From an uncultured Chloroflexia bacterium (GTDB taxonomy: Bacteria; Chloroflexota; Limnocylindria; Limnocylindrales; CSP1-4): a stretch of 64,000 nucleotides of DNA. Below, piece after piece: positions 2,956 to 53,732 of this stretch (positions within the stretch are counted from its first letter, which is position 1; each line of letters opens with the position of its first letter). The notes under the pieces were generated by a model. It had not been told where the DNA came from. It worked only from the letters and a program-made list of their open reading frames with translations, and searched no databases. The stretch covers positions 480,001-544,000 of the forward strand of contig CAWHDR010000001.1 of the NCBI GenBank assembly GCA_963828165.1. Reading direction: 5' to 3'. A program made the position numbers and the translations under genes.

Positions 2956-3702
2956 TCAGCGGCGCCACGCAAATAGACGCGTCGCACCGACATCGCACCA
3001 CACAAGGCCCGGCTCGGCGGGCGGCTCTTCGCCAAGTATGAGCGCGCGGACCCAACCGAGCGACGAACCCGGGAGGCGGGCCGCAAAGATTTCCGGATAG
3101 CGGCGAACCAGCGCTCTGTTTCTAGCCGTGGCGCGTACGACCCAGCACCCGGCGACGCGATGCGGGCGTTCGCCACCGACCGCGACGGCAAACGCTTCCG
3201 CCTCGGCGAGCTTTCGAGTTGACGCGCGAGCAGCGGCACCAAGATCCCCAATCGTGTTCCAGCACTCCACGAACGTTAGTCGGCGGCGGCGATCGTCGCG
3301 GAGGCCAACATCGGTCGAGCGTGACGGGTCCGCCGGCCGGGTCGGTAGCTCGAAGGATCCGCGATATCCGGCCGCACGCCCGAGTCGAAGCACCAGCTCC
3401 TGGATGCGCAGGTGGCCCGCGTCGATCGGCTCCTCGGTGGGATCCCGACCGAGGTCAATGTCAAGGCGGGTGTCGAGGGCAACAGCCACTCGCTGCCAGG
3501 TATCGAGGGTGTGACCGCCGCCGAGTCCGCGCTCCATAGCCGACACGGCGGATCGCGAGAGGCCGACTCGCTCGGCCAGCCGCTGCTGGGTCATGCCTCG
3601 TCGCCGGCGAGCCCCCCGGATCCGACCGCCGAGTCTGGCCGTCTGCTCTCGATTGCGCCGGCCGGCTTCCGCGGCCAGTTCCTGCTTCCGGTATTTGGGC
3701 AC
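2956..3702 (-). CDS. XRE-family HTH protein with C-terminal restriction-endonuclease-like domain
   Basis: IRGARRRRGMTQQRLAERVGLSRSAVSAMERG (HTH_3), followed by E..STDV..LTFVECW, a PD-(D/E)xK-like strand pattern. Confidence 0.75.
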   Translation of the reverse strand: MPKYRKQELAAEAGRRNREQTARLGGRIRGARRRRGMTQQRLAERVGLSRSAVSAMERGLGGGHTLDTWQRVAVALDTRLDIDLGRDPTEEPIDAGHLRIQELVLRLGRAAGYRGSFELPTRPADPSRSTDVGLRDDRRRRLTFVECWNTIGDLGAAARASTRKLAEAEAFAVAVGGERPHRVAGCWVVRATARNRALVRRYPEIFAARLPGSSLGWVRALILGEEPPAEPGLVWCDVGATRLFAWRR

Positions 3703-3820
3703 GATGAATCCCCTTCGGGTGCCCGTTCCTAGGCGGGCTGGGCGACGGGCTGGAGGCGGCGGCCACGAACGCGACGTGAGCTTCGCCGCGGCCGTGCTTG
3801 CTCCATGATCGCCGCACGCC

Positions 3821-3971
3821 CTGCACGTGGCCTTATCTGGGTCGTCGGCGGCAGCCGGGTCGGCCCTAGCGCCTCAGACGCCCCCGTTTGACCATGCAGG
3901 CGGCACAGGCGTCGACAAGGGACGCGCGATCCTGCGTAAGTGGTCCGCATCCCCAGACATCGACCATGCAG
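3821..3971. repeat. ~150-bp palindromic intergenic element (REP/REPIN-like)
   Basis: Imperfect terminal inverted repeats CTGCACGTGGCCTTATCTGGG / CCCCAGACATCGACCATGCAG; internal copy of GACCATGCAG at 3890-3899. Confidence 0.45.
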
Positions 3972-4086
3972 CGGTCACGGACACGCCCAAGGGTGCGGCA
4001 GTGGCCTTTGGCGCCGCGGGCGCCGTCAGCATGGCTCGCGGGCAAGCCCGAGCGTCCAGCGCGCGCCAAGATCTCCGGGCGAGCCC

Positions 4087-43285: not shown

Positions 43286-46200
43286 ATGCAGCATCTCGAT
43301 GTCGAGCTCGGCCGCGACGAACCCGAGGCATACATCGCCCGGGACCGCCGCCGAGCGCTCGCGACCCGGACCGAGATGCCCGATCGGGTCCGCGGCGCGG
43401 CACTGTTCGCCGACGTCTCGGGATTCACGCCGCTGACCGATGCCCTCGCGAATGAGCTCGGCTCGCAACGTGGCGCCGAGGAGCTCACCGCCAACCTGGG
43501 CCGCGTCTTCCACGCCGTCATCGAAGAGCTCGATCGCCACGGGGGCGACGTCATCTACTTCTCCGGCGATGCCATCACCTGCTGGCTCGATGGCGACGAC
43601 GGCCTGCGTGCGACCGCGGCCGCGCTGGCGATGCAGGCCGCGATGGCCCGCGTCGGGACGATCCGGACGCCGGCCGGGACGACGGTCCAGCTCGCCCTGA
43701 AGGTCGCCGTGGCCGCAGGTGACGCCCGCCGGTTCGTGGTGGGCGACCCCGAGATCCAGCTCATCGACGTCCTGGCCGGCGCCCTGATCGACGACCTCGC
43801 GGAGACCGAGCATTACGCCGAGAAGGGCGAGGTCGTGCTCGATCCATCGGCGGTCGCGGGCCTTGGTGACCGGGTCCGGATCGCGGACTGGCGTGACGCC
43901 GCCGGCGGCGATCGCCGGTTCGGGGTCGTCGAGTCGCTCCTTGCGGATGTCCCGACGCGTGCCGTGGAGGAGCCGCCACCGTTGGATGACGAACTCGTCC
44001 GACCGTGGCTGCTCCCCGTGGTGTGGGAACGGCTCCGCGCCGGCCGCGGCGAGTTCCTGGCCGATCTGCGGCCCGCCTTCCCATTGTTCCTGCGCTTCGG
44101 GGGCATCGACTACGACCATGACGAGGACGCCATCGAGAAGCTCGACGACTTCGTCCGGCACGCGCAACGGATCATGGCCGGCTTCGGTGGGAACGTCCTG
44201 CAGCTGACGCTGGGCGACAAGGGCGCCTACCTGTACGGCGTGTTCGGCTCACCGGTCGCGCACGAGGACGACGCGGCGCGAGCGGCCGCAGCGGGCCTGG
44301 AGCTGCGCGACCTGGAACGCACGACCCATGCCCGCGACATCCAGATCGGCATCACCCACGGTCGGCTCCGCAGCGGCACGTATGGGCACGCGATGCGTCG
44401 GACGTTCGTCTGCCTCGGTGACGCGGTGAACCTGTCGGCCAGGCTGATGTCGGCAGCGGCACCGGGGAGCATCGTCGTCGGGGACGAATTGCACGACCTG
44501 GCCGGTGACGCGTTCCTGTGGGAGCGCCTGCCCGACTTGAAGGTCAAGGGCAGGACCTGGGACATCGTGGCGTATCAGCTGACCGGCTCACTCGAGCGCG
44601 CCTCCCGGCGTCGGATCCGCTACGAGTTGGAGCTCGTCGGCCGGCGCGGGGAGCTCGCCGCGCTCGACGAGGGCCTCGAGGCCGCGCTCGCGGGAGAAGG
44701 CGGGATCGTCGGGATCGCCGCGGAGGCCGGCATGGGCAAGTCGCGCCTCGTCGCGGAGTTCGTGCGTAGCGCCCGACGGCGCGGCGTTTTCGTCGCCTTC
44801 GGGGAGTGCCAGTCGTTCGGCACGAACGCGAGCTACTTCGTGTGGCGCGAGATCTGGCGACGCCTGCTTCGGGTCGAGGACGCCGACTCGGACGACGAGC
44901 AACGGCGGGGAGTCGAGGCGGCGCTCGAGGCGATCGATCCGGCGCTCGCGCCCCGCGCTCCCCTGCTCGCGACCGTGCTCGGGCTGGAGATCCCGGACAA
45001 CGACCTGACGGCCGCGCTCGACGCGAAGCTGCGCAAGGCGTCGCTCGAGGATCTCCTCGCGACGTGCCTTCGCGACCGGGCCGCCGGCGAGCCGCTCGTC
45101 CTGGTACTCGAGGACTGTCACTGGATCGACGCGCTGTCGCGCGACCTGCTCGAAGCGCTCGGCCGGGCCGCGCTCGGGCTGCCGGTCCTGATCGTCCTGG
45201 CCTATCGCCCGACCAACGAGCCCGGTGGCGGTCTCGGCGTCGAACGCCTGCCGTCGTTCTCGGAGATCGGCCTCGCCGAGCTCGACGCCCACGACGCGGC
45301 CGAGCTGATCCGCTCCAAGCTCGACCAGGTCCGAACCACGGGCGGGGAGGCGGGGTCAGGGTCGGAGGCTGGGGAGGCCCTCGTAGCGCTTGTCATCGAG
45401 CGATCCGGCGGCAATCCGTTCTACATCGAGGAGCTCATCACCTACATCTCATCGCACGGCGTGGACCCGGGTGACGCCGCCGCCGTTCGTGCACTGGAGC
45501 TGCCGGAGAGCCTGCACAGCCTCGTTCTGTCACGGATCGATACGATGGGCGAGGAACCGCGCCGTACCCTCAAGGTCGCCAGCGTCGTCGGGCGCGTGTT
45601 CGAGGCGCCGGTGCTGCCCGGCGCATACCCGGAGCTCGGCGGCCTCGACACGGTCATCGAGCAGCTCGACACCCTGCGTGCCGCCGATCTGGTCAACCTC
45701 GATCGCGAAGCCGATCAGGCCTACCTCTTCAAGCACGTCGCCACCCAGGAGGTCGCCTACGAGAGCCTGCCATTCGGCCTTCGGGCGATGCTCCACGGCC
45801 GGGTCGGCGGCTACATCGAACGCTCCGACCCGGACGCGATCGAGCGACGACTGGACCTCCTGGCGCACCACTTCTGGAACAGCGATGACGAGGAGCGCAA
45901 GCGGTCGTACCTCGCGCGCGCCGCCGACGCCGCCCGTGCCTCCTACGCGAACACCGCGGCCATCGACTACCTGACCCGCCTGGTCCCGCTGCTCGAGGGG
46001 GCCGAGCGCACGGACGCGATGCTCAAGCTGGCCAAGGTCCATGAGCTCGTCGGTGACTGGCCGGTGGCCGAGTCCGTCGCGGGGGAGGCGTTATCCCTCG
46101 CGACCGGCCTGGGCGACCGGAGCGCGCAGGGGTGGAGCCACGCGGCCCTGGCCGAGATCGCTCGCAAGCAGGGTCGGTTCGATGACGCCACCGGGCATTT

Positions 46201-47026
46201 GGACGAGGCGCAGGCCGCCTTCGAGGCCGTCGGCGCGGACGACGGGACGGGCCAGGTCCTCCACCTGGCGGGGACCGTGGCGGCCCAGCGCGGCGACTAC
46301 GACGCGGCCCAGGCCCGCTACGAGGAGAGTCTCGCCATCCGCCAGCGGCTCGACGACAAGGCGAGCATGGGCGGCCTCTATTCCAACCTCGGGGTCATCG
46401 CCGAATACCGGGGCGACTACGCCGGGGCGCGCGCCCTCAACGAGCAGGCGCTGGCCATCCGGACCGAGGTCGGCGATCGCTGGGCGATCGGCGTTTCCCA
46501 GAACAATCTCGGGATGATCGCGCTCCACGAGCGCGCGTTCGGTGAGGCGAGTGAGCGGTTCGAGGAGTCGATCCGCCTGAACCGCGAGGTGGGCGACGCC
46601 TGGATGGTCGCGATCGGTCACAACAACCTCGGCACGGCGACGCGCGGCCTGGGCGATCACATCGCCGCCCGCGAGCACTACGCGGCGAGCCTCCGGGTGT
46701 ACCGCGACTACGACGACCGTTGGGCCCTCGCGTTCCTGCTCGAGGACATCGCCGTCCTGGCCGGGCAGGCGGGGGATCCGGAGGTGGCCTTCGAGCTGCT
46801 CGGCGCCGCGGAGAGCCTGCGGACGACGATCGGGTCCCCCCGCGGCGCCGTCCTTGAGCAGGAGCTGGCCGATCGATTCGCCGCCGCGCGCTCGAGCTTG
46901 GGGAACGTGGCCGCGGACGCCGCGGTGGAACAAGGGCGCTCGATGGATCTCCACGACGCACTTGAGCTGGCGGTCTCGATCTGTGCATCGCTTGGCGTCA
47001 GCCAGACGCGTGACCAGGACTATTGA
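43286..47026 (+). CDS. Soluble-adenylyl-cyclase-like protein: two class III cyclase domains + STAND/AAA ATPase + TPR repeats
   Basis: FADVSGFT, FSGDA, LGDKG, GDAVNLSARLM; Walker A EAGMGKS, Walker B LVLEDCHW, GGNPFYIEE; C-terminal TPRs. Confidence 0.92.
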   Translation: MQHLDVELGRDEPEAYIARDRRRALATRTEMPDRVRGAALFADVSGFTPLTDALANELGSQRGAEELTANLGRVFHAVIEELDRHGGDVIYFSGDAITCWLDGDDGLRATAAALAMQAAMARVGTIRTPAGTTVQLALKVAVAAGDARRFVVGDPEIQLIDVLAGALIDDLAETEHYAEKGEVVLDPSAVAGLGDRVRIADWRDAAGGDRRFGVVESLLADVPTRAVEEPPPLDDELVRPWLLPVVWERLRAGRGEFLADLRPAFPLFLRFGGIDYDHDEDAIEKLDDFVRHAQRIMAGFGGNVLQLTLGDKGAYLYGVFGSPVAHEDDAARAAAAGLELRDLERTTHARDIQIGITHGRLRSGTYGHAMRRTFVCLGDAVNLSARLMSAAAPGSIVVGDELHDLAGDAFLWERLPDLKVKGRTWDIVAYQLTGSLERASRRRIRYELELVGRRGELAALDEGLEAALAGEGGIVGIAAEAGMGKSRLVAEFVRSARRRGVFVAFGECQSFGTNASYFVWREIWRRLLRVEDADSDDEQRRGVEAALEAIDPALAPRAPLLATVLGLEIPDNDLTAALDAKLRKASLEDLLATCLRDRAAGEPLVLVLEDCHWIDALSRDLLEALGRAALGLPVLIVLAYRPTNEPGGGLGVERLPSFSEIGLAELDAHDAAELIRSKLDQVRTTGGEAGSGSEAGEALVALVIERSGGNPFYIEELITYISSHGVDPGDAAAVRALELPESLHSLVLSRIDTMGEEPRRTLKVASVVGRVFEAPVLPGAYPELGGLDTVIEQLDTLRAADLVNLDREADQAYLFKHVATQEVAYESLPFGLRAMLHGRVGGYIERSDPDAIERRLDLLAHHFWNSDDEERKRSYLARAADAARASYANTAAIDYLTRLVPLLEGAERTDAMLKLAKVHELVGDWPVAESVAGEALSLATGLGDRSAQGWSHAALAEIARKQGRFDDATGHLDEAQAAFEAVGADDGTGQVLHLAGTVAAQRGDYDAAQARYEESLAIRQRLDDKASMGGLYSNLGVIAEYRGDYAGARALNEQALAIRTEVGDRWAIGVSQNNLGMIALHERAFGEASERFEESIRLNREVGDAWMVAIGHNNLGTATRGLGDHIAAREHYAASLRVYRDYDDRWALAFLLEDIAVLAGQAGDPEVAFELLGAAESLRTTIGSPRGAVLEQELADRFAAARSSLGNVAADAAVEQGRSMDLHDALELAVSICASLGVSQTRDQDY

Positions 47027-47147: not shown

Positions 47148-50100
47148 GTGAGTTTGCTGGGGACGTCTGTCGTTGTGTCTGACAACCCACGGCTGCGCCG
47201 TGGCTGGAGACGGGCTCCCGTCGTGCGCCGCGCGATCGCGCTGTTGCTGCCAGCCCTGCTCGTCGCTCAGCTGCTGCCGCAGTTCGCTCCAGTCGCCCTG
47301 GCCGCGGACGTGGTCGGTGTCGCGCTCAACAACGGCGTCACCGGCTCGGGATACACCGGGTTCAACGGCAATGCGACCAACCCGAACGCGCAGGACCTTA
47401 CGGCCCTGGGCGCCACCGACTGGCGGATCTGGGGCACGAGCGCAGGCGAACCGCTCCTGGCCGGCAGCGCCCGCAAGAGCGGTGGATCCGGGATCAGCTC
47501 CCTCTCCGACATCCAGCAGATCCCGAACATCCCGCTCCGTGCGCTGGGCCCGCTCGGTCTGTCGGTCGGCAACGGTTCGTCGACCTTGCCGTTCTCGTTT
47601 GCCTGGTCCGACGGCGCGTCCCCCGTCAGCGCCACCGCGACGAAGGGCGGGCTTCAGCACAACGCCCCGGCTGGCGGCTCCGTCGGCTACGGCTTCGGGC
47701 TCAGTGTGCCTGCATCCACGACGTCGCAGCGCCTTACCTTGTGGGTCTCCGCCCATCATGGCACCGGAAAGCTGACCGCCAACATCGGCAGCACCGTCCA
47801 GACGAACACGGGCGTGACCGGCGGCCAGAACCACGGCGGCGTCTACACGATCGACTTCTCCGGAGATGGCGTCGAGGAGGTCCTCGAGGTCGCGTACGTC
47901 CTGGACTCGCTGAGCCCGTCGCCCGACGAGGTCGGCCTCCCCTCGACCGAGGCAAACGTCGTCGTATACGCGGCGGCGCTGTCCCCGACGCCCGGGGCGA
48001 CTGTCCAGGCGCCTGTCCTCTATCAAGCGATTCCGGGAGGCACGCAACCAGGCGCTGATCAGCGGCCGCCTCACCGGCAGTCCCACGACGACGTATGAGG
48101 TGACCGTCAAGACAGCCGCGTCGTGCGTTGCCGGCGTGCTCGGCGCGGGCGGCTCCACCCTCGCAGTGGGCGGCTCGCCCTCGTTCTCTGTCACCACCAA
48201 TGCGAGCGGTCAGGCCGACTTCAGCTCGCTTGCGCCAAATGGTTCGGCTCTCGCCGCGTACGTGACCGCGGAAGTGACCGGCCCAGGCTCGATCACCAGC
48301 GCACCTTCCTCGTGCATCGTCGCTGGGGAAGATAACGACACGTGGCCGCGCGCCCGGGCGATCTCTTTGGTCGAGGGGGGCGGATCGGCGGCCGGCCATA
48401 TCGACGACGCTGGGCGGGCGCGCTGGTTCAAGGTTGCGATCCAGCCGGGCCAACGCCTGAACCTGACGTTGTCGGGCCTCCCGGCCGACTTCGACATGTT
48501 CGTGTTCCGGGACATCGCGAAGACCTATGCCTCCCTCACGAGTACGACGGATCTCACGCGTCTCAGCGCGGAATTCGCCCCCTCGGCGTTTTCCCCGTCG
48601 GCGTTCTCGCCCTCAGCGTTCTCTCCCTCAGCGTTCTCGCCCTCAGCGTTCTCCCCTTCGGCCTTCTCCCCTTCGGCCTTCTCGCCATCCGTTTTCTCAC
48701 CGTCCGCGTTCAGTCCGTCCGCGTTCTCGCCGTCGGCCTTCAGCCCGTCGGCGTTCTCGCCCTCGGCGTTCAGCCCGTCGGCGTTCAGCCCTCGGCGTTC
48801 AGCCCGTCGGCGTTCAGCCCGTCGGCGTTCAGCCCGTCGGCGTTCAGCGCGGACACCTATGCGAGCGCGCAGATCCGAAGCCTCATCACGGGCTCCGGAA
48901 ACGCCGGACTGACCAGCGAAAGCATCGTGGTCGACACGTGGAATAACACCGGCGACTTCTACATCCGAGTCAACGGCAAGAACGGCGCCTCGAGCCTCGC
49001 GCCCTTCACGCTCGGCATCACCGTCGTCGGCAGCGACTGTGATGGAGTACTACCCGTGGCCGCCGACAGCTTCGTTGCCCCGGCGGGCAGCTATGAGACC
49101 CTGATCTTGAGCGATCTGTCCCGCATGGACGAGGCCGTCACCGGCAACGCGGTGGCGGACAAGACGGCCCTCGCCGCCGACCTCGAGACCTTCGCGGCTC
49201 TGCCAGAGATCCGCGGTGACGTCGTCGACGTCAGCAGCCGGCCACGAATCGTGGCGCTCAACACCCAGGCCGACGACGCGACGACCTGCATGTACGCCAA
49301 GAACCTCGTCGCCTCGTCGATCCGTGATCTGGTGACGGCGTACCGCGCCACGAATCCCGGCTTGAAGTACGTCGTGATCGTCGGTGCCGACGACGCCATC
49401 CCATTCTTCCGATACCCCGACCAGGCACTGCTCGGCCCCGAAGCGGAGTTCGCCGCGCCCGTGAACAGTGGTACGGCCTCCGACGCGAGTCTGCGCGCGA
49501 ATTACGTGCTCGGGCAGGACGCCTACGGCGCATCGATCGACCTGTCGGTCCGGGCCTCCACGTTCCCGATCCCGGACCTCCCGGTCGGGCGCCTCGTCGA
49601 AACAGCCGCCGAAGCGTCACGCATGATCGATGCGTATGGCTCGACGAACCGCGGGACGGTCGACACTCCGACGTCTGCCCTTGTCACGGGTTACGACTTC
49701 CTCGATGACGCCGCCCGCGAAGTCAGCGACGAACTCGATGCGGGTATGGGCACGGCCGGGACGGTCAACGAAGTGATCTCGAGCAGCGATGTGGCGCCAC
49801 TGGCCCTCTGCGGTCTTCCGTCCGCGGCGCCGCTCAGCCTCCCTGATTGCTCCTGGGATGCGAACGCCCTGCGTACGGCGCTCCTTGGCTCGCCTCACGA
49901 CCTGGCATTCCTGGCCGGCCACTTCAGCGCCAACAGCGCCCTGGCGGCCGACTTCCGGACGAACCTGCTCACGACGGACCTCGCCGCCTCGCCGGTCGAC
50001 CTCCGGAGTTCCATCGTCTTCAGCGCGGGCTGCCACTCGGGGTACAACCTCGTCGATGGTGACGCGATCACCGGTGTCAGCCTGCCGCTCGATTGGGCGC

Positions 50101-52223
50101 AGGCCTTCGCCCAGAAGCGATCCATCCTGATCGCCGGGACCGGCTACCAGTACGGTGATACCGACTTCCTCGAGTACAGCGAACGGCTGTACCGCGACTT
50201 CGCGCGCGAGCTTCGCGCCGGGGCAGCCGGGACGGCGATCTCCGTCGGTGAGGCCCTCGTCCGGGCCAAGGTGACCTACCTCGCGACCACGCCGGACATC
50301 CGTGGCATCCACGAGAAGGCCATCCTCGAGGCGACCCTTTTCGGCCTCCCGATGTTCGGCGTGACGATGCCGGCCGGCCGTGGTGCGACACCGGGCACCG
50401 GTGGCCCACTCGCGACGACCGCGGTCACGACGGAGCCCGCGGCCTCGCTTGGACTCGCCACCCATGACCTGACCCTCACGCCGACGCTGACCCCGCAAAA
50501 TCGTCTGCTCAAGAACCCGCCCTACGACGCGACACCGGGGACCTTCACGGACGCCAAGTGGCTGTCCGGACCCAACGGCGTCGTCACCAACCCCGCCGAG
50601 CCGGCACTGCCGCTCGTCGCCCGGAACGTCACGGCCACAGACGACGACCTCGTCCTGCGCGGCGTCGGGTTCCGCGGCGGAACCTACGTGGACACGCCGG
50701 GGATCGTCCCGCTCACCGGAGCACCCACCACGGAGCTGCGTGGCGTGCACGCCCCGTTCGTCTCGCCCGTGTTCTACCCGATGCGCCTCTGGAGCCCGAA
50801 CTACTTCGGGGCACTGGGCGAGCACGGTGGCACGAACCTCCTCGTGACACCGGTCCAGCACAAGACGGACAACCCGCTCCTCGGGACGAGCATCCAGCGC
50901 AAGTACACCGGACTCGACCTGAAGCTGTACTACAGCGGCAATCTGACAGCGGCGGCCCTGTCCGACGCCCCGACCATCGTGGATGTCCAGACCGAAACCG
51001 TCTCGGGCAACGTCAACTTCACGGTCCAGGTCGTGGGCGATCCCAAGGCGGCCGTCCATGGCGTCTGGATCACCTTCACGGGCGGCACCGGCACCTGGGC
51101 GCCGCTCGACCTCACCCAGGACGCGACCGATTCTCGTCTCTGGACGGGCACGCTGCCATCGGCATCGGCGCCGGCGAACCTCAAGTTCGTCGTCCAGGCC
51201 GTCAACGGCTTCGGCCTCGTCTCGTTCGACGACAACCGTGGTGCCTACTACGCTGCTGCCGGCAGCGCCGGTGGGGCCGCGGAAACCTCCCTCGAGCTGA
51301 TCGCCCCGCCGACCAGTGGGACGTTCGGCCAGAGCCCGGCCATCACGGTCGAACTCAAGGCGGGCTCCACACTGCTCGCCAACAAGCCCGTCGTGATCGG
51401 CATCGGTGGTTCCGGCGCCGTCGGCGTGACCGGCTCCAACGGGCGCGCCACGGTCCGCGTGCCCCTCTCGACGTCACCTGGCACGACCCAGATCCAGGCC
51501 TCGTTCGGTGGTGACGCCACCCACGCAGCATCGAGCGATTCGGCCGAACCGTTCACGATCGCCAAGGCGACCGCGAGCCTGTCGCCGTTCAGCGCATTCG
51601 TGACGCAGACGCCGACCACGAACACGGGCGCCGTGACCACGCTCAGCGCGGCGCTGGGCGGCCCGACGCCCGTGCCACTCACCACCAGCCCGCTCATCCA
51701 GCGGACCGTGACCTTCACGCTGACCGGGCCGGTCACCAGGACCATCTCCACCATCACCGATTTCCTCGGCCAGGCGAAGCTGCCCAAGGGTCTGCCCGCG
51801 GGTACGTACAACGTCACGGCGACCTTCGATGGCGACAGCACGTTCACGAGTGCGACCCGCACGGGCTCCCTCATCATCGCCCCGTTCACCGGGTTCTTCT
51901 CCCCGGTCGACAGCCTGCCAACGCTCAATACCGTCAACGCGGGTTCCAGCATCCCGGTCAAGTTCAGCCTGGGCGGCAACCGCGGCCTGGCGATCTTCGC
52001 GACGGGCTACCCGCTGGCTTCGAAGATCACGTGCGACTCCGGCCTCCCCGTAGACGCGATCGAGGAGACGACGACATCAGCCAGCGGACTCGTCTACGAC
52101 GCGGCTACCAACCAGTACAAGTACACGTGGAAGACGCCAAAGACTTATGCGGGCGCCTGCTACCGGCTCGACCTCAAGATGATCGACGGCAGCGCCTTCA
52201 GCGCGAACTTCAAGTTCAAGTAG
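47148..52223 (+). CDS. Large secreted protein (~1,690 aa): PPC-like domain with SPSAF repeats, C25/gingipain-like peptidase, Ig-like and PxKF domains; interrupted by two frameshifts (~48047, ~48790)
   Basis: Joins ORFs 47148-48098, 48100-48912 and 48342-52223; signal peptide ..PVALA; YVVIVGADDAIPF, DLPVGRL, AGH, AGCH, LFGLP; C-terminal FTGFFSPVD..AGSSIPVKFSL; exact start uncertain. Confidence 0.8.
48577..48845 (+). repeat. 18 x 15-bp coding tandem repeat, (SPSAF)n
   Basis: 269 nt = 18x15 minus 1; unit 15 lacks one base. Confidence 0.95.
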
Positions 52224-52282
52224 TCCCGGTCGACCCGCTGGGCGCCGCGTGCGCCCAGCCGGGAACATCGGGAACCGGCATG

Positions 52283-52309
52283 GGGAACCGGCAGGGGCCG
52301 GGCGGTGTA
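52283..52309 (+). promoter_or_regulatory. ECF promoter GGGAACC-N14-GGTGTA (probably autoregulatory)
   Basis: Same boxes and spacing as at 53735-53761. Confidence 0.7.
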
Positions 52310-52328
52310 GTCAGTGCGGATCCGATAC

Positions 52329-52893
52329 GTGGAGGGCCGTCCACATCGAAGACGCCGACCTGATCACGCGCGCCCGGACCGGTGACGTCGCAGCGTACGA
52401 AGAGATCGTTCGCCGCTACCAGGACGTCGCCATCCGGACCGCGCACCTCGTGTGCCCGGAGACCGATGCCGACGATGCCGTCCAGGACGCCTTTCTCAAG
52501 GCCTACGACGCGCTGCCCCGCTTTCGCGATGGCGCCCCGCTGCGCCCATGGCTGCTGCGGATCGTCACCAACGAAGCGCGCAACCGGAGGCGATCGGCGG
52601 GGCGACGACAGGGGCTCGCGCTGCGCGCGGCGGCGAGGGAGCCGCGCGACGCCGCGGTCCCGGGGCCCGAGGCGACGGTGATCGCTGCCGAAGCGAGCGC
52701 CGAGCTCATGGCCGCCCTGAACACCCTGCGTGACGACGATCGAGAGGTCTTGGGGGCTCGCTTCCTCCTGGACCTTTCGGAAGCCGAGACCTCCGAAGCG
52801 CTCGGGCTCCCACGTGGGACCGTGAAATCACGGACCTCGCGCGCGCTCATGCGCTTGCGCGACGTCCTCACCGCCGCGGAGGTGTCGCGATGA
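52329..52893 (+). CDS. ECF sigma factor (apparent 1-nt frameshift near the start)
   Basis: AYEEIVRRYQ, DAVQDAFLKAY, PWLLRIVTNEARN, LPRGTVKSR; the plausible GTG start (VEGRP) is one base out of frame with IEDADL. Confidence 0.85.
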
Positions 52894-53732
52894 GCGATCA
52901 GCTCACACGGCTCGCCGCCCGTGACGACGCCGGTCTCGAGGCGATGCTGCGAGGCACGGCGGCGTCCATCGCCTGGCCGACCGCCAGCCCGCCTGGTGCA
53001 CCGGACGTCGCCACGCGCGTTCGCGTCCGACTCGCGGCTGCTCCTCGGCCCACGGCCCGCCGTCCGTGGGCGGCGTGGCGGCCGGTCCGGCGCGGCTTGG
53101 TGCTCGCGCTCATCGCCCTGCTCGCGCTGGCCGCGATCGCCGGGGCAATCGGGCTCGGATTGCCGGGGCTGCAGCTGATCCTTGGCGAGCCGCCGGCCAG
53201 CCTGCCGCCCTCCGTGGCACCCAGCCGGACCCCTCCCCCGGGCGCGCTGGGGTCATCGCTTGGCCTCGGCGACAACGTGACGCTCGAACAGGCCGAGGCC
53301 ATCACCGGGATCGTGGCGCAGCTCCCTGGCGATCCGGCCATCGGCCCACCCGACGAGGCGTATGTCGATCGAACGCGCGGGAACCAGGTCGCCTTCGTCT
53401 GGGCGGCGAGCGAGACGCTGCCCGAGACCCGTGAGCCGGGCATCGGGCTGATCGTGATGCGGTTCGAGGGCAAGCTCGACGACGGGTATCGGCAGAAGCT
53501 CATCGGGAACGGCGTGACCGTCGAGCGCGTGACCGTCGACGGTCAGCGTGGCTTCTGGGTCTCCGGCGAAGCGCATTTCTTCTTCTACGTCCACGAGGGC
53601 CGTGGACACATCGACGACGGTCGTCGATGGGTGGGTGACGCCCTCGCATGGACGGACGGCGACACGACGTACCGGGTCGAGAGCGCTCTGGGAAAGGACG
53701 CGACGATCACCCTGGCCGAGTCGCTGGAGTAA
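52890..53732 (+). CDS. Probable anti-sigma factor (one TM helix + extracytoplasmic domain)
   Basis: ATGA overlap with the sigma gene; TM helix; VTVDGQRGFWV..LAWTDGDTTYRV..LAESL. Confidence 0.75.
   Translation: MSDQLTRLAARDDAGLEAMLRGTAASIAWPTASPPGAPDVATRVRVRLAAAPRPTARRPWAAWRPVRRGLVLALIALLALAAIAGAIGLGLPGLQLILGEPPASLPPSVAPSRTPPPGALGSSLGLGDNVTLEQAEAITGIVAQLPGDPAIGPPDEAYVDRTRGNQVAFVWAASETLPETREPGIGLIVMRFEGKLDDGYRQKLIGNGVTVERVTVDGQRGFWVSGEAHFFFYVHEGRGHIDDGRRWVGDALAWTDGDTTYRVESALGKDATITLAESLE

What the first reader, a model, noticed from the sequence alone, without database searches (positions are those of the whole stretch)
48577..48845. 18 codon-diversified SPSAF pentapeptide repeats inserted in a PPC-like domain
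Seen: 18 units with only two amino-acid variants (APSAF, SPSVF) but heavy synonymous variation. The first Ser uses TCC/TCG/TCT/TCA/AGT/AGC and Pro uses all four codons, so the peptide rather than the DNA is conserved; the last three units are identical, suggesting ongoing expansion. The array splits a PPC-like fold (WFKVAIQPGQRLNLTLSGLPADFDMF..[repeat]..SGNAGLTSESI..GDFYIRVNG) just before the Cys peptidase. A Phe every fifth residue is unlike ordinary Pro/Ser linkers and unlike A(D/N)Lxx pentapeptide repeats. Inference: a new solenoid or self-assembling element, a bait/auto-inhibitory region, or a tandem precursor from which the fused protease releases peptides. This is the best candidate for an undescribed system in the window.
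Basis: partly seen in the sequence, partly recalled or inferred. Interest (0 to 1): 0.85.

Follow-up and report, generated by a model that had tools for sequence, protein, structure and literature searches.

The report
Aromatic pentapeptide loop in secreted protease
A run of 18 Ser-Pro-Ser-Ala-Phe units that interrupts a binding domain of a large secreted cysteine protease is real, is kept by selection in thousands of related proteases of soil and water bacteria, and is predicted to be a floppy, sticky loop whose job nobody has yet described.

Summary
The array at 48577..48845 is real (18.2 copies of 15 nt), but it is 269 nt long, not 270. Unit 15 lacks one base, so the frame shifts inside the array. 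A second shift lies near 48036-48057. Housekeeping genes of this assembly (uvrA, carB) are broken in the same way, so both shifts are probably assembly errors.

Read through, this is one roughly 1,690-residue gene: signal peptide, unknown domains, a PPC-like sandwich split by the array, a gingipain-like C25 peptidase, Ig-like domains and a PxKF end.

The array is the hallmark of a very large family:
- 2,058 clusters at 50% identity match with E<=1e-30.
- 149 of the best 150 carry a period-5 array at this site.
- All 74 genomic loci with upstream DNA carry a repeat there.
- The family spans Chloroflexota, Actinomycetota and Proteobacteria.

Only the aromatic residue in every fifth place is fixed, and about 60 unit types exist. 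The usual length is 18 units. Lys, Arg and His are almost absent. Identical peptides are often encoded as differently as random synonymous draws.

AlphaFold2 folds the PPC and C25 parts confidently but leaves the array at pLDDT 34-48. My best reading is a selected, exposed, disordered "sticker" loop. A solenoid, a pro-region and a tandem peptide precursor remain weaker rivals. I found no description in print.

The parts
43334..47026 (+). Conserved neighbour gene encoding a Guanylate_cyc + AAA_16 (STAND-type) + TPR_12 protein. The start is uncertain; the ORF is open from 42116.
   Evidence: ORF list. Pfam: TPR_12 1.2e-32, AAA_16 9e-25, Guanylate_cyc 2.2e-9. A homologue lies beside the protease gene in 50 of 80 loci. 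It is adjacent in 8 of the 12 other genomes of the class that hold the protease.
47148..48038 (+). Frame-0 start of the protease gene: a signal-peptide-like N-terminus and a domain that matches no Pfam family.
   Evidence: ORF 47148..48098. It is 86% identical to residues 1-254 of the unbroken homologue P0004. No Pfam or NCBIfam hit. The N-terminus reads RRGWRRAPVVRRAIALLLPALLVAQLL..ALAAD. The signal-peptide call is made by eye.
48036..48057 (+). First frame break (frame 0 to frame 1), in or next to the run GGG at 48035-48037.
   Evidence: Three-frame translation. P0004 continues without a break across this point. DNA read.
48328..48516 (+). N-terminal half of the PPC-like beta-sandwich (EDNDTW ... 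DFDMFVFRD), frame 1.
   Evidence: Pfam PPC profile 3-39 of 70, E 6.4e-4, 21 bits, below the cut-off of 25.9. Coordinates. The AlphaFold2 sandwich has pLDDT 94-98 in homologue L009. Foldseek matches the ColG collagen-binding domain (5iku, E 6e-4) and the PPC domain 5sv5.
48517..48576 (+). Conserved helical lead-in (IAKTYASLTSTTDLTRLSAEF) that ends in the family motif L-[ST]-A-E-[FY].
   Evidence: Flanks are conserved in the homologues. Helices are predicted at the matching place in L009.
48577..48845 (+). The array: 18 units of [S/A]-P-S-[A/V]-F, totalling 269 nt.
48787..48800 (+). Unit 15, only 14 nt long. This is the second frame break (frame 1 to frame 0), at a C run.
   Evidence: Contigs of 90-95% similar relatives in two runs carry one extra letter here and keep the frame.
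48846..49031 (+). Lead-out (SADTYASAQIRSLITGSG) and the C-terminal half of the PPC-like sandwich (NAGLTSES..GDFYIRVNG..GITVVG), frame 0.
   Evidence: for coordinates. In P0086, PPC profile positions 40-70 follow directly after the array. AlphaFold2 model.
49314..50354 (+). Peptidase_C25-like catalytic domain. Conserved Asp at 49695-49697, His at 49920-49922, Cys at 50031-50033.
   Evidence: Pfam Peptidase_C25 E 2.6e-7, 30.7 bits against a cut-off of 23. Invariant columns D284, H359 and C396 in 28 sequences. Coordinates. Foldseek best hits for the homologue model are RgpB (4ief, E 3.1e-11) and Kgp.
51303..51560 (+). Bacterial Ig-like domain (Big_3_5).
   Evidence: Pfam E 1.6e-10.
51888..52223 (+). 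C-terminal PxKF domain and the stop codon.
   Evidence: NCBIfam NF038114, E 4.6e-38, 130 bits against a cut-off of 35.
52249..52893 (+). ECF sigma factor gene downstream. It is only loosely linked to the protease gene.
   Evidence: Pfam Sigma70_r2 and r4. A homologue is present in 10 of 80 loci.

Best explanation
The array is the window's copy of a family-wide element: a tandem array, usually about 90 residues long, of [S/A]-P-x-x-[F/Y/W] pentads. It is inserted, between two short helical stalks, into a surface loop of the PPC-like beta-sandwich that precedes a gingipain-like (C25) catalytic domain in a large secreted multidomain protease.

Shown:
- The element is under purifying selection on the peptide.
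- It has a preferred length of about 18 units and fixed landmarks.
- It excludes Lys, Arg, His and Cys.
- Structure predictors treat it as having no fixed fold.

Inferred:
- It works as an exposed, intrinsically disordered loop. Its evenly spaced aromatic residues act as many weak 'stickers'. The Pro/Ser spacers keep it soluble and unaggregated.
- It carries no basic residue that an Arg/Lys-directed C25 enzyme (its own) could cut.
- It therefore adds multivalent, low-affinity binding or an extensible tether to a domain type that in other secreted proteases binds insoluble substrates.

In the window the gene is out of frame twice. This most likely reflects consensus errors of the assembly, not decay of the gene.
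For: Family hallmark:
- 98 of 120 listed homologues carry the array between the same flanks.
- I read six of the 22 without it. All six begin inside or after the array.
- All 74 genomic loci that include upstream DNA carry a repeat at the site: 70 of period 5, 3 mixed 5/10, and 1 hexapeptide.
- The profile search finds 5,493 clusters at E<=1e-3 and 2,058 at E<=1e-30. Of the best 150, 149 have a period-5 or period-10 array.

Selection:
- In 17 of 29 loci, units that encode the same peptide differ at the DNA level as much as random synonymous draws from the gene's own codon usage (|z|<=1.3). The window shows z = +3.9.
- Gaiellaceae orthologues keep unit-by-unit register (identity 0.87-0.96 on the diagonal, 0.72 off it). 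Their array peptides are the same.
- Deviant units pile up at ordinals 5, 6 and 8 (65, 43 and 34 of 173 arrays).
- An unbroken run of 19-20 aromatic residues spaced by five occurs in 108 of 231 proteins.

Composition:
- Place 5 is F 83.5%, Y 13.5%, W 3%. This is by construction, because arrays were picked as runs with F, W or Y in every fifth place.
- About 60 majority unit types exist.
- K is 0.03%, R 0.02%, H 0.01% and C 0% of 20,400 array residues, against 1.6%, 3.6%, 1.1% and 0.7% elsewhere.
- Net charge runs from +1 to -35.

Disorder and fold:
- Two AlphaFold2 models (275 and 720 residues, alignments of 53 and 46 rows) give the array pLDDT 34-48 and no secondary structure. The PPC part scores 90-98 and most of the C25 part scores high.
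- The PPC fold is confirmed by matches to collagen-binding and PPC domains. The C25 fold is confirmed by matches to RgpB and Kgp.

Secretion: a crude signal-peptide test is positive in 137 of 163 full-length homologues.

Frameshifts as artefacts:
- uvrA lies in 2 open frames and carB in 3. rpoB, rpoC, dnaE and secA are whole.
- That is about 3 breaks in 19 kb, so about 0.8 breaks are expected in this 5.1-kb gene.
- Relatives' contigs keep the frame at unit 15.
Against: - No experiment and no direct binding partner exists. 'Sticker loop' is a reading of composition plus low model confidence. Low pLDDT can also mean a fold or an oligomer that the predictors do not know.
- The strongly preferred length and the fixed landmarks at ordinals 5, 6 and 8 fit a defined structure at least as well as a floppy loop.
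- Queried alone, (SPSAF)18 comes close to the Pentapeptide_4 cut-off (32.6 against 38 bits). The one hexapeptide variant (L033) comes close to Hexapep and YdcK solenoid models (25.8 against 27, and 28.4 against 30).
- Arrays range from uncharged to -35. That is hard to fit with one common physical mode of sticking.
- The P1 preference of the enzyme is unknown. The argument from missing Lys/Arg rests on an Asp placed by topology only.
- Three Anaerolineae loci do carry Arg (ARGSR) in the insert.
- I could not show that the window's two frame breaks are errors. No run holding this genome was found.
Confidence: 0.45

Rival explanations
1. The array folds into a regular beta-solenoid, or into an oligomeric rod, that current predictors miss. 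One candidate is a 3-units-per-coil triangular helix, giving 6 coils from 18 units. Another is a pentapeptide-repeat-like quadrilateral helix. The rod would project from the PPC domain as a rigid spacer or a binding surface.
For: - The preferred length of 18 units holds across phyla.
- Landmarks at ordinals 5 and 8 lie three units apart.
- In Gaiellaceae arrays, DNA identity rises at shifts of +-3 units (0.78-0.83 against 0.64-0.73 at +-1 and +-2).
- Pentapeptide_4 scores 32.6 bits (E 8.7e-8) for the array alone.
- The GGNAFV x17 variant scores near Hexapep and YdcK solenoid models.
- There is a weak match to the DotG repeat region (E 9.7e-5, poor alignment).
Against: - Both AlphaFold2 models give pLDDT 34-48 and no strands for the array.
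- No in/out register fits all variants. Place 3 is Asp or Glu in 29% of units, and place 4 is Glu or Gln in 11%.
- All Pfam scores stay under their cut-offs.
- Array length ranges from 21 to 230 residues among the 150 representatives.
- The window's own higher-order DNA period is 2 units, not 3.
Confidence: 0.12
2. The PPC-like sandwich and its loop act as a pro-region. Units of the array would occupy the active-site cleft as pseudo-substrates. They would be trimmed stepwise, delaying activation after secretion. The model is the inhibitory loop of the gingipain RgpB prodomain.
For: - The sandwich sits immediately N-terminal to the catalytic domain.
- RgpB is the best structural match.
- In RgpB, a loop of the N-terminal prodomain puts Arg126 into the S1 pocket and is cut there first (PMC4357240, passages read).
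- The loop is predicted to be exposed.
- Units are uniform within a protein and differ between lineages.
Against: - The array does not gain confidence when it is modelled together with the catalytic domain (pLDDT 34-36).
- It holds practically no Lys or Arg. Meanwhile an invariant Asp occupies the topological place of the Arg-binding Asp163 of RgpB (inference).
- The PPC fold is not the RgpB prodomain fold. No prodomain chain appears among the listed hits.
- One pseudo-substrate would be enough, so 18 copies are not explained.
Confidence: 0.12
3. The array is a multi-copy peptide precursor. Extracellular proteolysis, by the fused enzyme or by others, would release identical pentapeptides that act as a signal or a product. 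They might be sensed by the TPR domain of the adjacent cyclase-STAND protein.
For: - Every copy keeps the same peptide despite saturated synonymous sites.
- Unit types are lineage-specific, with at least 19 switches among 46 loci.
- The junction is fixed: aromatic, then a small residue, then Pro.
- The loop is exposed.
- The neighbour gene with a TPR sensor is conserved.
Against: - No processing data exist.
- No Lys, Arg or Asn is available as P1 for a clan CD enzyme (PMC4357240 Table 2, as seen). That table does list Leu as P1 for family C80.
- Some arrays mix units: A/V/T in L020, I/V/N in L055.
- Switches of unit type occur by re-expansion of one or two units. That needs no co-evolving receptor.
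- The preferred copy number and the landmarks are not expected of a precursor.
- The neighbour is missing from the 4-kb flanks of 30 of 80 loci.
Confidence: 0.07
4. The array is merely a tolerated low-complexity linker with no role of its own. Alternatively, the window's copy is a decaying pseudogene and the repeat is drifting.
For: - The window's gene has two frame breaks.
- The gene is patchy: 13 of 81 genomes of the class, and 0 of 3 other genomes of the genus.
- Arrays in other MAGs also carry frameshifts (L022, L026) or a stop codon (L017).
- Length varies from 21 to 230 residues.
Against: - Peptides stay perfectly conserved over saturated synonymous sites.
- The aromatic period is invariant, and K, R, H and C are excluded in 231 proteins.
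- Landmarks are fixed.
- A repeat is present at the site in all 74 loci with upstream DNA.
- Housekeeping genes of the same assembly are broken at a similar rate.
- Both breaks sit at short homopolymer runs.
Confidence: 0.08

Closest known systems
Pentapeptide-repeat proteins (Pfam Pentapeptide PF00805 and Pentapeptide_4 PF13599; right-handed quadrilateral beta-helix; consensus A(D/N)LXX recalled from memory)
   Same: Both have a strict five-residue period with Phe or Leu as the recurring hydrophobic residue and a small residue two places before it. The array alone scores 32.6 bits on Pentapeptide_4.
   Different: The array is below the gathering score (38). Pro is in the unit. Asp or Glu stands two places before Phe in 29% of units. 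No beta-helix is predicted. Units are perfectly identical. The array is inserted in a loop of another domain.
Gingipain RgpB zymogen: N-terminal prodomain with an inhibitory loop (PDB 4ief; PMC4357240, passages read)
   Same: The catalytic domain has a C25 fold (Foldseek E 3.1e-11). A beta-sandwich lies directly N-terminal to it and carries a long protruding loop.
   Different: The sandwich here is PPC-like, not the RgpB prodomain fold. The loop is a 90-residue repeat without Arg. No autoprocessing site is known.
PPC / collagen-binding domains of secreted bacterial proteases (Pfam PF04151; PDB 5iku, 5sv5, 1nqd)
   Same: The fold matches. Both halves of the profile match in register. Both are accessory domains of a secreted protease.
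   Different: The Pfam score is under the cut-off in the window (21 against 25.9 bits). The domain lies N-terminal to the peptidase, not C-terminal. It is split by an insert of about 140 residues (helices, array, helices).
Aromatic 'sticker and spacer' low-complexity domains: FG-nucleoporins, the FUS/hnRNPA1 type, and the RNA polymerase II CTD heptads (all recalled from memory, no call)
   Same: All have evenly spaced aromatic residues in a Ser/Pro/Ala-rich chain predicted to be disordered, with about 18-20 aromatic residues. Only the aromatic residues are conserved.
   Different: These arrays are bacterial and extracellular. They form a closed loop inside a folded domain. Their period is exact and the units identical. 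They contain no Gly. No phase behaviour or partner is known.
Multi-copy peptide precursors, some fused to their enzyme (yeast alpha-factor, FMRFamide genes, fungal dikaritins, plant BURP-domain cyclases; recalled from memory, no call)
   Same: Both have many identical short peptides in tandem that are kept identical by selection while codons drift. In the BURP case, the repeats and the enzyme share one chain.
   Different: The arrays have no dibasic or other known processing site. Copy number has a strong mode. Internal landmarks exist. Nothing shows release of peptides.
Left-handed beta-helix hexapeptide repeats (Pfam Hexapep PF00132), compared only with the rare variant in L033
   Same: GGNAFV x17 at the same site fits the [LIV]-G-x-x-[STAV]-x pattern and scores 25.8 bits.
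   Different: The score is below the cut-off (27). It occurs in one locus of 79. It keeps the 'AF' of the pentads, so it may simply be a pentad with one extra residue.

Membership tests
Peptidase family C25 (gingipain-like, clan CD) | Match to the Pfam Peptidase_C25 model above its gathering score | tested here: met
   E 2.6e-7, 30.7 bits against a cut-off of 23; residues 157-503 of the 48846.. piece match profile positions 47-371 of 374.
Peptidase family C25 (gingipain-like, clan CD) | Gingipain/caspase-like fold | tested here: met
   The AlphaFold2 model of homologue L009 has as best Foldseek hits RgpB (4ief, E 3.1e-11, TM 0.55 on the target) and Kgp (6i9a, 4rbm), then separase and CHAT proteases. 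This was tested on a homologue about 55% identical, not on the broken window protein.
Peptidase family C25 (gingipain-like, clan CD) | Catalytic His and Cys, in that order, each after a strand | tested here: met
   G-H-F (H359) and G-C-H (C396) are invariant in 28 sequences, are present in the window, and are at least 90% conserved in 46 loci. That these are the catalytic pair is inferred from motif and order, not from a residue-level superposition.
Peptidase family C25 (gingipain-like, clan CD) | Arg or Lys specificity at P1 | not testable with these tools
   There is only a topological hint: an invariant Asp (D284) lies at the strand-to-helix junction 75 residues before the His, like Asp163 of RgpB. 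Sequence searches of the PDB gave no gingipain alignment.
PPC, bacterial pre-peptidase C-terminal domain (PF04151) | Match to the Pfam model above its gathering score | tested here: not met
   The window's N-half scores 21 bits against 25.9. The C-half of P0086 scores 19.5 bits. Each half alone is too short to reach the cut-off.
PPC, bacterial pre-peptidase C-terminal domain (PF04151) | Beta-sandwich fold of PPC / collagen-binding domains | tested here: met
   AlphaFold2 pLDDT is 94-98 for both halves packed as one sandwich. Foldseek hits are 5iku (E 6e-4), 5sv5 PPC domain (TM 0.62 on the target), 1nqd, 3jqw, and the CPE C-terminal domain.
Pentapeptide-repeat family (PF00805 / PF13599) | Match above the gathering score | tested here: not met
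   Pentapeptide_4 scores 18.5 and 17.6 bits in whole proteins, 32.6 bits for the array of L009 alone and 21.1 bits for L045, against a cut-off of 38. PF00805 scores 8.5 bits. There is no hit at all for the SPSQW, SPSVF or SPDAF arrays.
Pentapeptide-repeat family (PF00805 / PF13599) | Predicted right-handed quadrilateral beta-helix | tested here: not met
   No strands, and pLDDT 34-48 over the array in two models.
PxKF domain-containing proteins (NCBIfam NF038114) | C-terminal domain match above the cut-off | tested here: met
   130 bits against a cut-off of 35; residues 1015-1125 match profile positions 1-113 of 113.
Tandem peptide precursors (RiPP-like or pheromone-like) | Recognisable processing sites that flank each copy | tested here: not met
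   There are no basic residues (K+R 0.05%) and Asn is 0.35% in 20,400 array residues. The only fixed junction is aromatic, then Ser/Ala, then Pro. No known protease of this clan is documented to cut there in what I read.
Tandem peptide precursors (RiPP-like or pheromone-like) | Released peptide detected | not testable with these tools
   This needs mass spectrometry.

The most novel reading that the evidence does not exclude
The protease carries its own reporter. Once it is active outside the cell, the 18 identical pentapeptides of the loop are cut out, taken up, and bound by the TPR sensor of the cyclase-STAND protein encoded next door. That protein then turns the signal into a cyclic nucleotide. 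The cell would thus measure whether its secreted enzyme is working and staying nearby, with lineage-specific peptides acting as 'pherotypes'. The evidence does not exclude this. Identical copies are kept under selection, there are about 60 unit types with frequent switches, the aromatic/small/Pro junction is fixed, and the two genes are tightly linked.
Probability: 0.05. Interest if true: 0.9.

Novelty: new variant of a known kind. Interest (0 to 1): 0.6.

Why it matters
Perfect peptide repeats are usually young DNA duplications. Here, identical five-residue units are held by selection while their codons have drifted to randomness. This holds in thousands of protease clusters from at least three phyla of mostly uncultured soil, sediment and water bacteria.

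That makes the array a rare natural case in which three things can be read from sequence alone: the rule 'one aromatic residue every five, no basic residue', a preferred valence of about 18, and free choice of the spacer. It is a ready-made test bed for ideas on aromatic sticker patterning, on how disordered loops serve extracellular enzymes, and on how such proteases are activated or targeted.

The family is large and unstudied, and extracellular proteolysis by these phyla matters for the turnover of soil and sediment organic nitrogen. The linked cyclase-STAND-TPR gene suggests a regulatory circuit around the enzyme.

There is also a practical point. Gene callers split these genes at the array, and Pfam labels the array 'Extensin_1'. 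A dedicated model would improve annotation.

Tried and rejected
- Self-association of the PPC[array] (complex prediction, 3 copies of residues 16-260 of A2). Verdict: no answer, score 0.00 against a mark of 0.42. I take this as no evidence either way.
- Reads for the two frame breaks. No run holds the stretch; the best share of words was 0.11. Laying four runs gave only short contigs of 90-95% similar relatives. Two of them cross unit 15 with one extra letter. Nothing covers 48036-48057. So I could not check the window's own reads.
- I first read rpoB and rpoC, which are whole, as a sign of a clean assembly and leaned towards a pseudogene. I dropped that after finding uvrA and carB split.
- Sequence searches of the PDB with the C25 piece and with profile A3 found no gingipain. 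I therefore could not make a residue-level map of the S1 pocket.
- The ESM Atlas gave only PPC-leaning clusters at 0.92 and held no structure.
- I tested whether switches of unit type happen by parallel point changes in ordered units, using the sister pairs L056/L078, L035/L043 and L041/L042. There was no diagonal signal. The arrays of L078 and L043 look freshly re-expanded from two units. The idea is rejected for these pairs.
- I tested for selection in favour of codon scrambling, which would show as identity below the random expectation. It was not seen: 7 of 29 loci lie below expectation, and none significantly.
- A second array in the same genome: none found.
- Literature. I searched for the repeat strings and PxKF, for pentapeptide repeat / pre-peptidase C-terminal / C25, for C25 / gingipain-like / Chloroflexota / Limnocylindria / Gaiellales / extracellular peptidase, and for pentapeptide / tandem repeat / disordered / aromatic / secreted protease. 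No listed title or abstract describes this element. I read only the listings.

Full report
**The observation.** The stretch 48577..48845 is a genuine tandem array. Tandem Repeats Finder reports period 15, 18.2 copies, 82% matches and score 236, and also a two-unit period of 30 with score 278. Read in frame 1, units 1-14 give APSAF, six SPSAF, SPSVF and six SPSAF. Across the 17 full units, the first codon uses all six Ser codons plus one GCC. Pro uses all four codons. The last three units are identical.

The array is 269 nt long, not 270. Unit 15 (48787..48800) has 14 nt. The frame-1 ORF (48100..48912) therefore runs on as RRSAR... to a stop, and the rest of the gene continues in frame 0 (ORF 48342..52223).

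**One gene, broken twice.** The unbroken homologue P0004 (1,593 aa) aligns to the frame-0 ORF 47148..48095 at 86% identity (its residues 1-254). It aligns to the frame-1 piece 47965..48786 at 85% identity (its residues 258-503). The window therefore holds one gene of about 5.1 kb (47148..52223), with a first frame change between 48036 and 48057 and a second in unit 15.

Both breaks lie at short homopolymer runs: GGG at 48035-37 and CCC at 48789-91. I could not check the reads of this genome. No public run holds the stretch, the best share of words being 0.11. The laid contigs are 90-95% similar relatives. Two of them cross unit 15 with one more letter and keep the frame.

The assembly itself answers most of the question. 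rpoB, rpoC, dnaE and secA are whole. However, uvrA lies in two open frames, carB in three, and a uvrA paralogue in three. That is about three breaks in 19 kb of long housekeeping genes, so about 0.8 breaks are expected in a 5.1-kb gene. Arrays of two other MAGs are also shifted at a C run or a GG (L026, L022), and one carries a stop (L017). I conclude that the breaks are probably consensus errors. This is inferred, not shown.

**Architecture.**
- The N-terminus looks like a signal peptide (by eye). A crude test is positive in 137 of 163 full-length homologues.
- About 250 residues follow with no Pfam match, then an Ig-like stretch.
- Pfam PPC profile positions 3-39 of 70 end just before the array (E 6.4e-4, below the cut-off). 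In homologue P0086, positions 40-70 follow directly after it.
- AlphaFold2 on the intact homologue L009, with 53 aligned sequences, packs both halves into one sandwich at pLDDT 94-98. Foldseek matches this sandwich to collagen-binding and PPC domains: 5iku at E 6e-4, then 5sv5, 1nqd and 3jqw.
- Downstream, Peptidase_C25 scores above its cut-off (30.7 against 23 bits). Next come Big_3_5 and a C-terminal PxKF domain (130 bits).
- The 720-residue model finds RgpB (4ief, E 3.1e-11) and Kgp as its best structural matches.
- His359 and Cys396 of the 48846.. piece are invariant in 28 sequences.

**The array is a family hallmark.**
- A word-indexed search gave 884 relatives, of which 120 were listed. 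Ninety-eight of those carry a period-5 array between the same flanks..DLTxLSAE[FY] and ..AFSSAQTRSLIG...
- I read six of the 22 that lack it. All six start inside or after the array. The other 16 are 830-1,166 aa long, and I did not read them.
- In genome contigs, 499 stretches encode relatives. Of the 79 loci kept, 70 have a period-5 array. Five of the remaining loci have no upstream DNA. Three Anaerolineae loci have a mix of SPDAF-like pentads and ARGSR-containing decapeptides. One locus (L033) has GGNAFV x17.
- A profile search of 1.84 billion representatives found 5,493 clusters at E<=1e-3 and 2,058 at E<=1e-30. Of the best 150, 149 carry a period-5 or period-10 array.
- The carriers named in the record titles are MAGs of Limnocylindria, Anaerolineae, Gaiellaceae, Acidimicrobiia, Solirubrobacterales, and Beta- and Gammaproteobacteria.
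- Within the window's class the gene is patchy: 13 of 81 genomes, and none of three other genomes of the same genus.
- The window's genome has no second array.

**What is conserved.** These figures come from 231 proteins with arrays, totalling 20,400 array residues.
- Place 1 is Ser 75% or Ala 14%.
- Place 2 is Pro 87%.
- Place 3 is Ser 53%, Asp 23%, Ala 11% or Glu 6%.
- Place 4 is Ala 45%, Val 26%, then Glu, Gln, Thr, Ile and others.
- Place 5 is Phe 83.5%, Tyr 13.5% or Trp 3%. This last result is by construction, because arrays were picked as runs with an aromatic residue in every fifth place.
- About 60 majority unit types occur.
- Lys, Arg, His and Cys make up 0.03%, 0.02%, 0.01% and 0% of array residues, against 1.6%, 3.6%, 1.1% and 0.7% in the rest of the same proteins.
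- Net charge runs from +1 to -35.
- The commonest length is an unbroken chain of 19-20 aromatic residues (108 of 231). That equals 18 units plus the AE[FY] before the array and a degenerate unit after it. Among the 150 representatives, arrays span 21-230 residues.
- Deviant units are not random. Among 173 arrays with an intact start, they pile up at ordinal 5 (65 arrays, 49 of them SPDAY), ordinal 6 (43) and ordinal 8 (34). The window's single SPSVF is at ordinal 8.

**How the array evolves.**
- Identical peptides are encoded by many different 15-mers, up to 19 distinct units out of 20.
- In 17 of 29 loci, the mean pairwise DNA identity of same-peptide units equals that of random synonymous draws from the gene's own codon usage (|z|<=1.3). 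In nine loci, and in the window (z = +3.9), there is excess identity, which means some recent homogenisation. In no locus is identity significantly lower than random.
- Four Gaiellaceae orthologues keep unit-by-unit register (identity 0.87-0.96 on the diagonal against 0.72 off it), while their flanks are 79-93% identical. Their array peptides are the same.
- On a tree of 46 loci built without the array columns, the unit type changes at least 19 times.
- Sister pairs with different types share no register. The arrays of L078 and L043 show a fresh two-unit DNA super-repeat.
- Types therefore switch by re-expansion of one or two units, after which codons drift while the peptide is held.

**Structure.** Both AlphaFold2 models leave the array without secondary structure. 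pLDDT is 37-48 in the 275-residue construct and 34-36 in the 720-residue construct that includes the catalytic domain. Queried alone, (SPSAF)18 scores 32.6 bits on Pentapeptide_4 (cut-off 38). The GSGFS array scores 21 bits. The SPSVF array hits only 'Extensin_1', far below its cut-off. The SPSQW and SPDAF arrays hit nothing relevant. The hexapeptide variant comes close to Hexapep (25.8 against 27) and to a YdcK solenoid model (28.4 against 30). A PDB sequence search finds only the DotG repeat region, with a poor alignment. No single inward/outward register fits units that may carry Asp or Glu at place 3, or Glu or Gln at place 4.

**Reading.** The facts best fit an exposed loop with no fixed fold, kept for its evenly spaced aromatic residues, its Pro/Ser spacers, its length, and its freedom from basic residues. 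Family C25 enzymes cut after Arg or Lys. RgpB binds the P1 Arg with Asp163 at the start of the first helix of the caspase-like half (PMC4357240; I read the passages returned). This family has an invariant Asp (D284, 49695-49697) at the equivalent strand-to-helix junction, 75 residues before the His. If that Asp plays the same role, a 90-residue loop without Lys or Arg is one that its own enzyme cannot cut. This step is inference.

PPC and collagen-binding domains are substrate-binding accessories in other secreted proteases (recalled from memory; fold match). A many-sticker loop on such a domain would add weak multivalent binding or an extensible tether. I put 0.45 on this reading. The rivals are:
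- An unpredicted solenoid or oligomer (0.12). The preferred length, the landmarks three units apart, the +-3-unit DNA signal and the near-threshold repeat models speak for it.
- A pseudo-substrate pro-region on the RgpB model (0.12).
- A tandem peptide precursor (0.07).
- An inert linker or pseudogene (0.08).
- The remainder is 'something else'.

**Surroundings.** The gene upstream (43334..47023) encodes Guanylate_cyc + AAA_16 + TPR_12. Homologues lie directly beside the protease gene in 50 of 80 loci. They are usually upstream on the same strand, and downstream in the Anaerolineae clade. In the window's class, the four genomes with a close orthologue (53-73% identity) all have it adjacent to the protease gene. 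Four more genomes have a 30-35% homologue within about 5 kb. The window's genome has no close paralogue. This pair is worth following for its own sake, and it underlies the most novel reading.

**Novelty.** Four literature searches listed nothing on this element. I saw listings only, and supplements were closed. A fifth search was for the gingipain prodomain. Sources name these proteins 'PxKF domain-containing', 'C25 family cysteine peptidase' or 'hypothetical', and precomputed Pfam tags the array as Extensin_1. I rate it a new variant of a known kind: a selected low-complexity tandem repeat. Its unusual features are that it splits a domain, has an exact aromatic period, carries no basic residue, and has a preferred valence.

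Noticed in passing
window 43334..47026 (+), and loci L003-L081: There is a conserved gene pair. A cytoplasmic Guanylate_cyc (probably two cyclase-homology domains, by eye) + AAA_16 + TPR protein is encoded next to the secreted PPC[array]-C25 protease. This holds in 50 of 80 loci, and in 8 of the 12 other genomes of the class that hold the protease. The window's genome has no close paralogue of it.
   Followed up: partly
G000:C1:14976-18322 (carB), C1:2701766-2704628 (uvrA), C1:2839381-2841566 (uvrA paralogue): Long housekeeping genes of the window's assembly are split over two or three open frames. The assembly (6 contigs, 87.7% complete) therefore carries frequent single-base indels, and other 'broken' genes in this window should be read with that in mind.
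   Followed up: partly
L033:3632-3949: One Chloroflexia MAG has 17 copies of the hexapeptide GGNAFV in place of the pentads, at exactly the same site. They score just under the Hexapep and YdcK beta-solenoid cut-offs.
   Followed up: partly
L058, L064, L073 (about 3650-3990 in each): Three Anaerolineae loci replace part of the array by decapeptides such as SPDALARGSR. These are the only arrays I saw with regular Arg. The total length of the insert stays about the same.
   Followed up: no
L035:3734-3991 and L035:10148-10375: Two arrays of the same type, each with the same SADVF landmark, lie 6 kb apart in one betaproteobacterial contig. This suggests tandem paralogues of the protease gene.
   Followed up: no
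window 52249..53732 (+): An ECF sigma factor gene overlaps a 280-residue ORF with no Pfam match, possibly its anti-sigma factor. They lie directly downstream of the protease gene. Homologues occur in 10 and 7 of 80 loci respectively.
   Followed up: partly
G000:C1:1405342-1405686 (L002): A second protein of the genome, in a 1,339-residue open frame, ends in a PxKF domain (37% identity to the window's). It has no C25 match and no array.
   Followed up: no
P0121, P0133, P0137: A few family members have much longer arrays: 230, 150 and 125 residues of PDAFS, PDAFT and PDQWA units.
   Followed up: no
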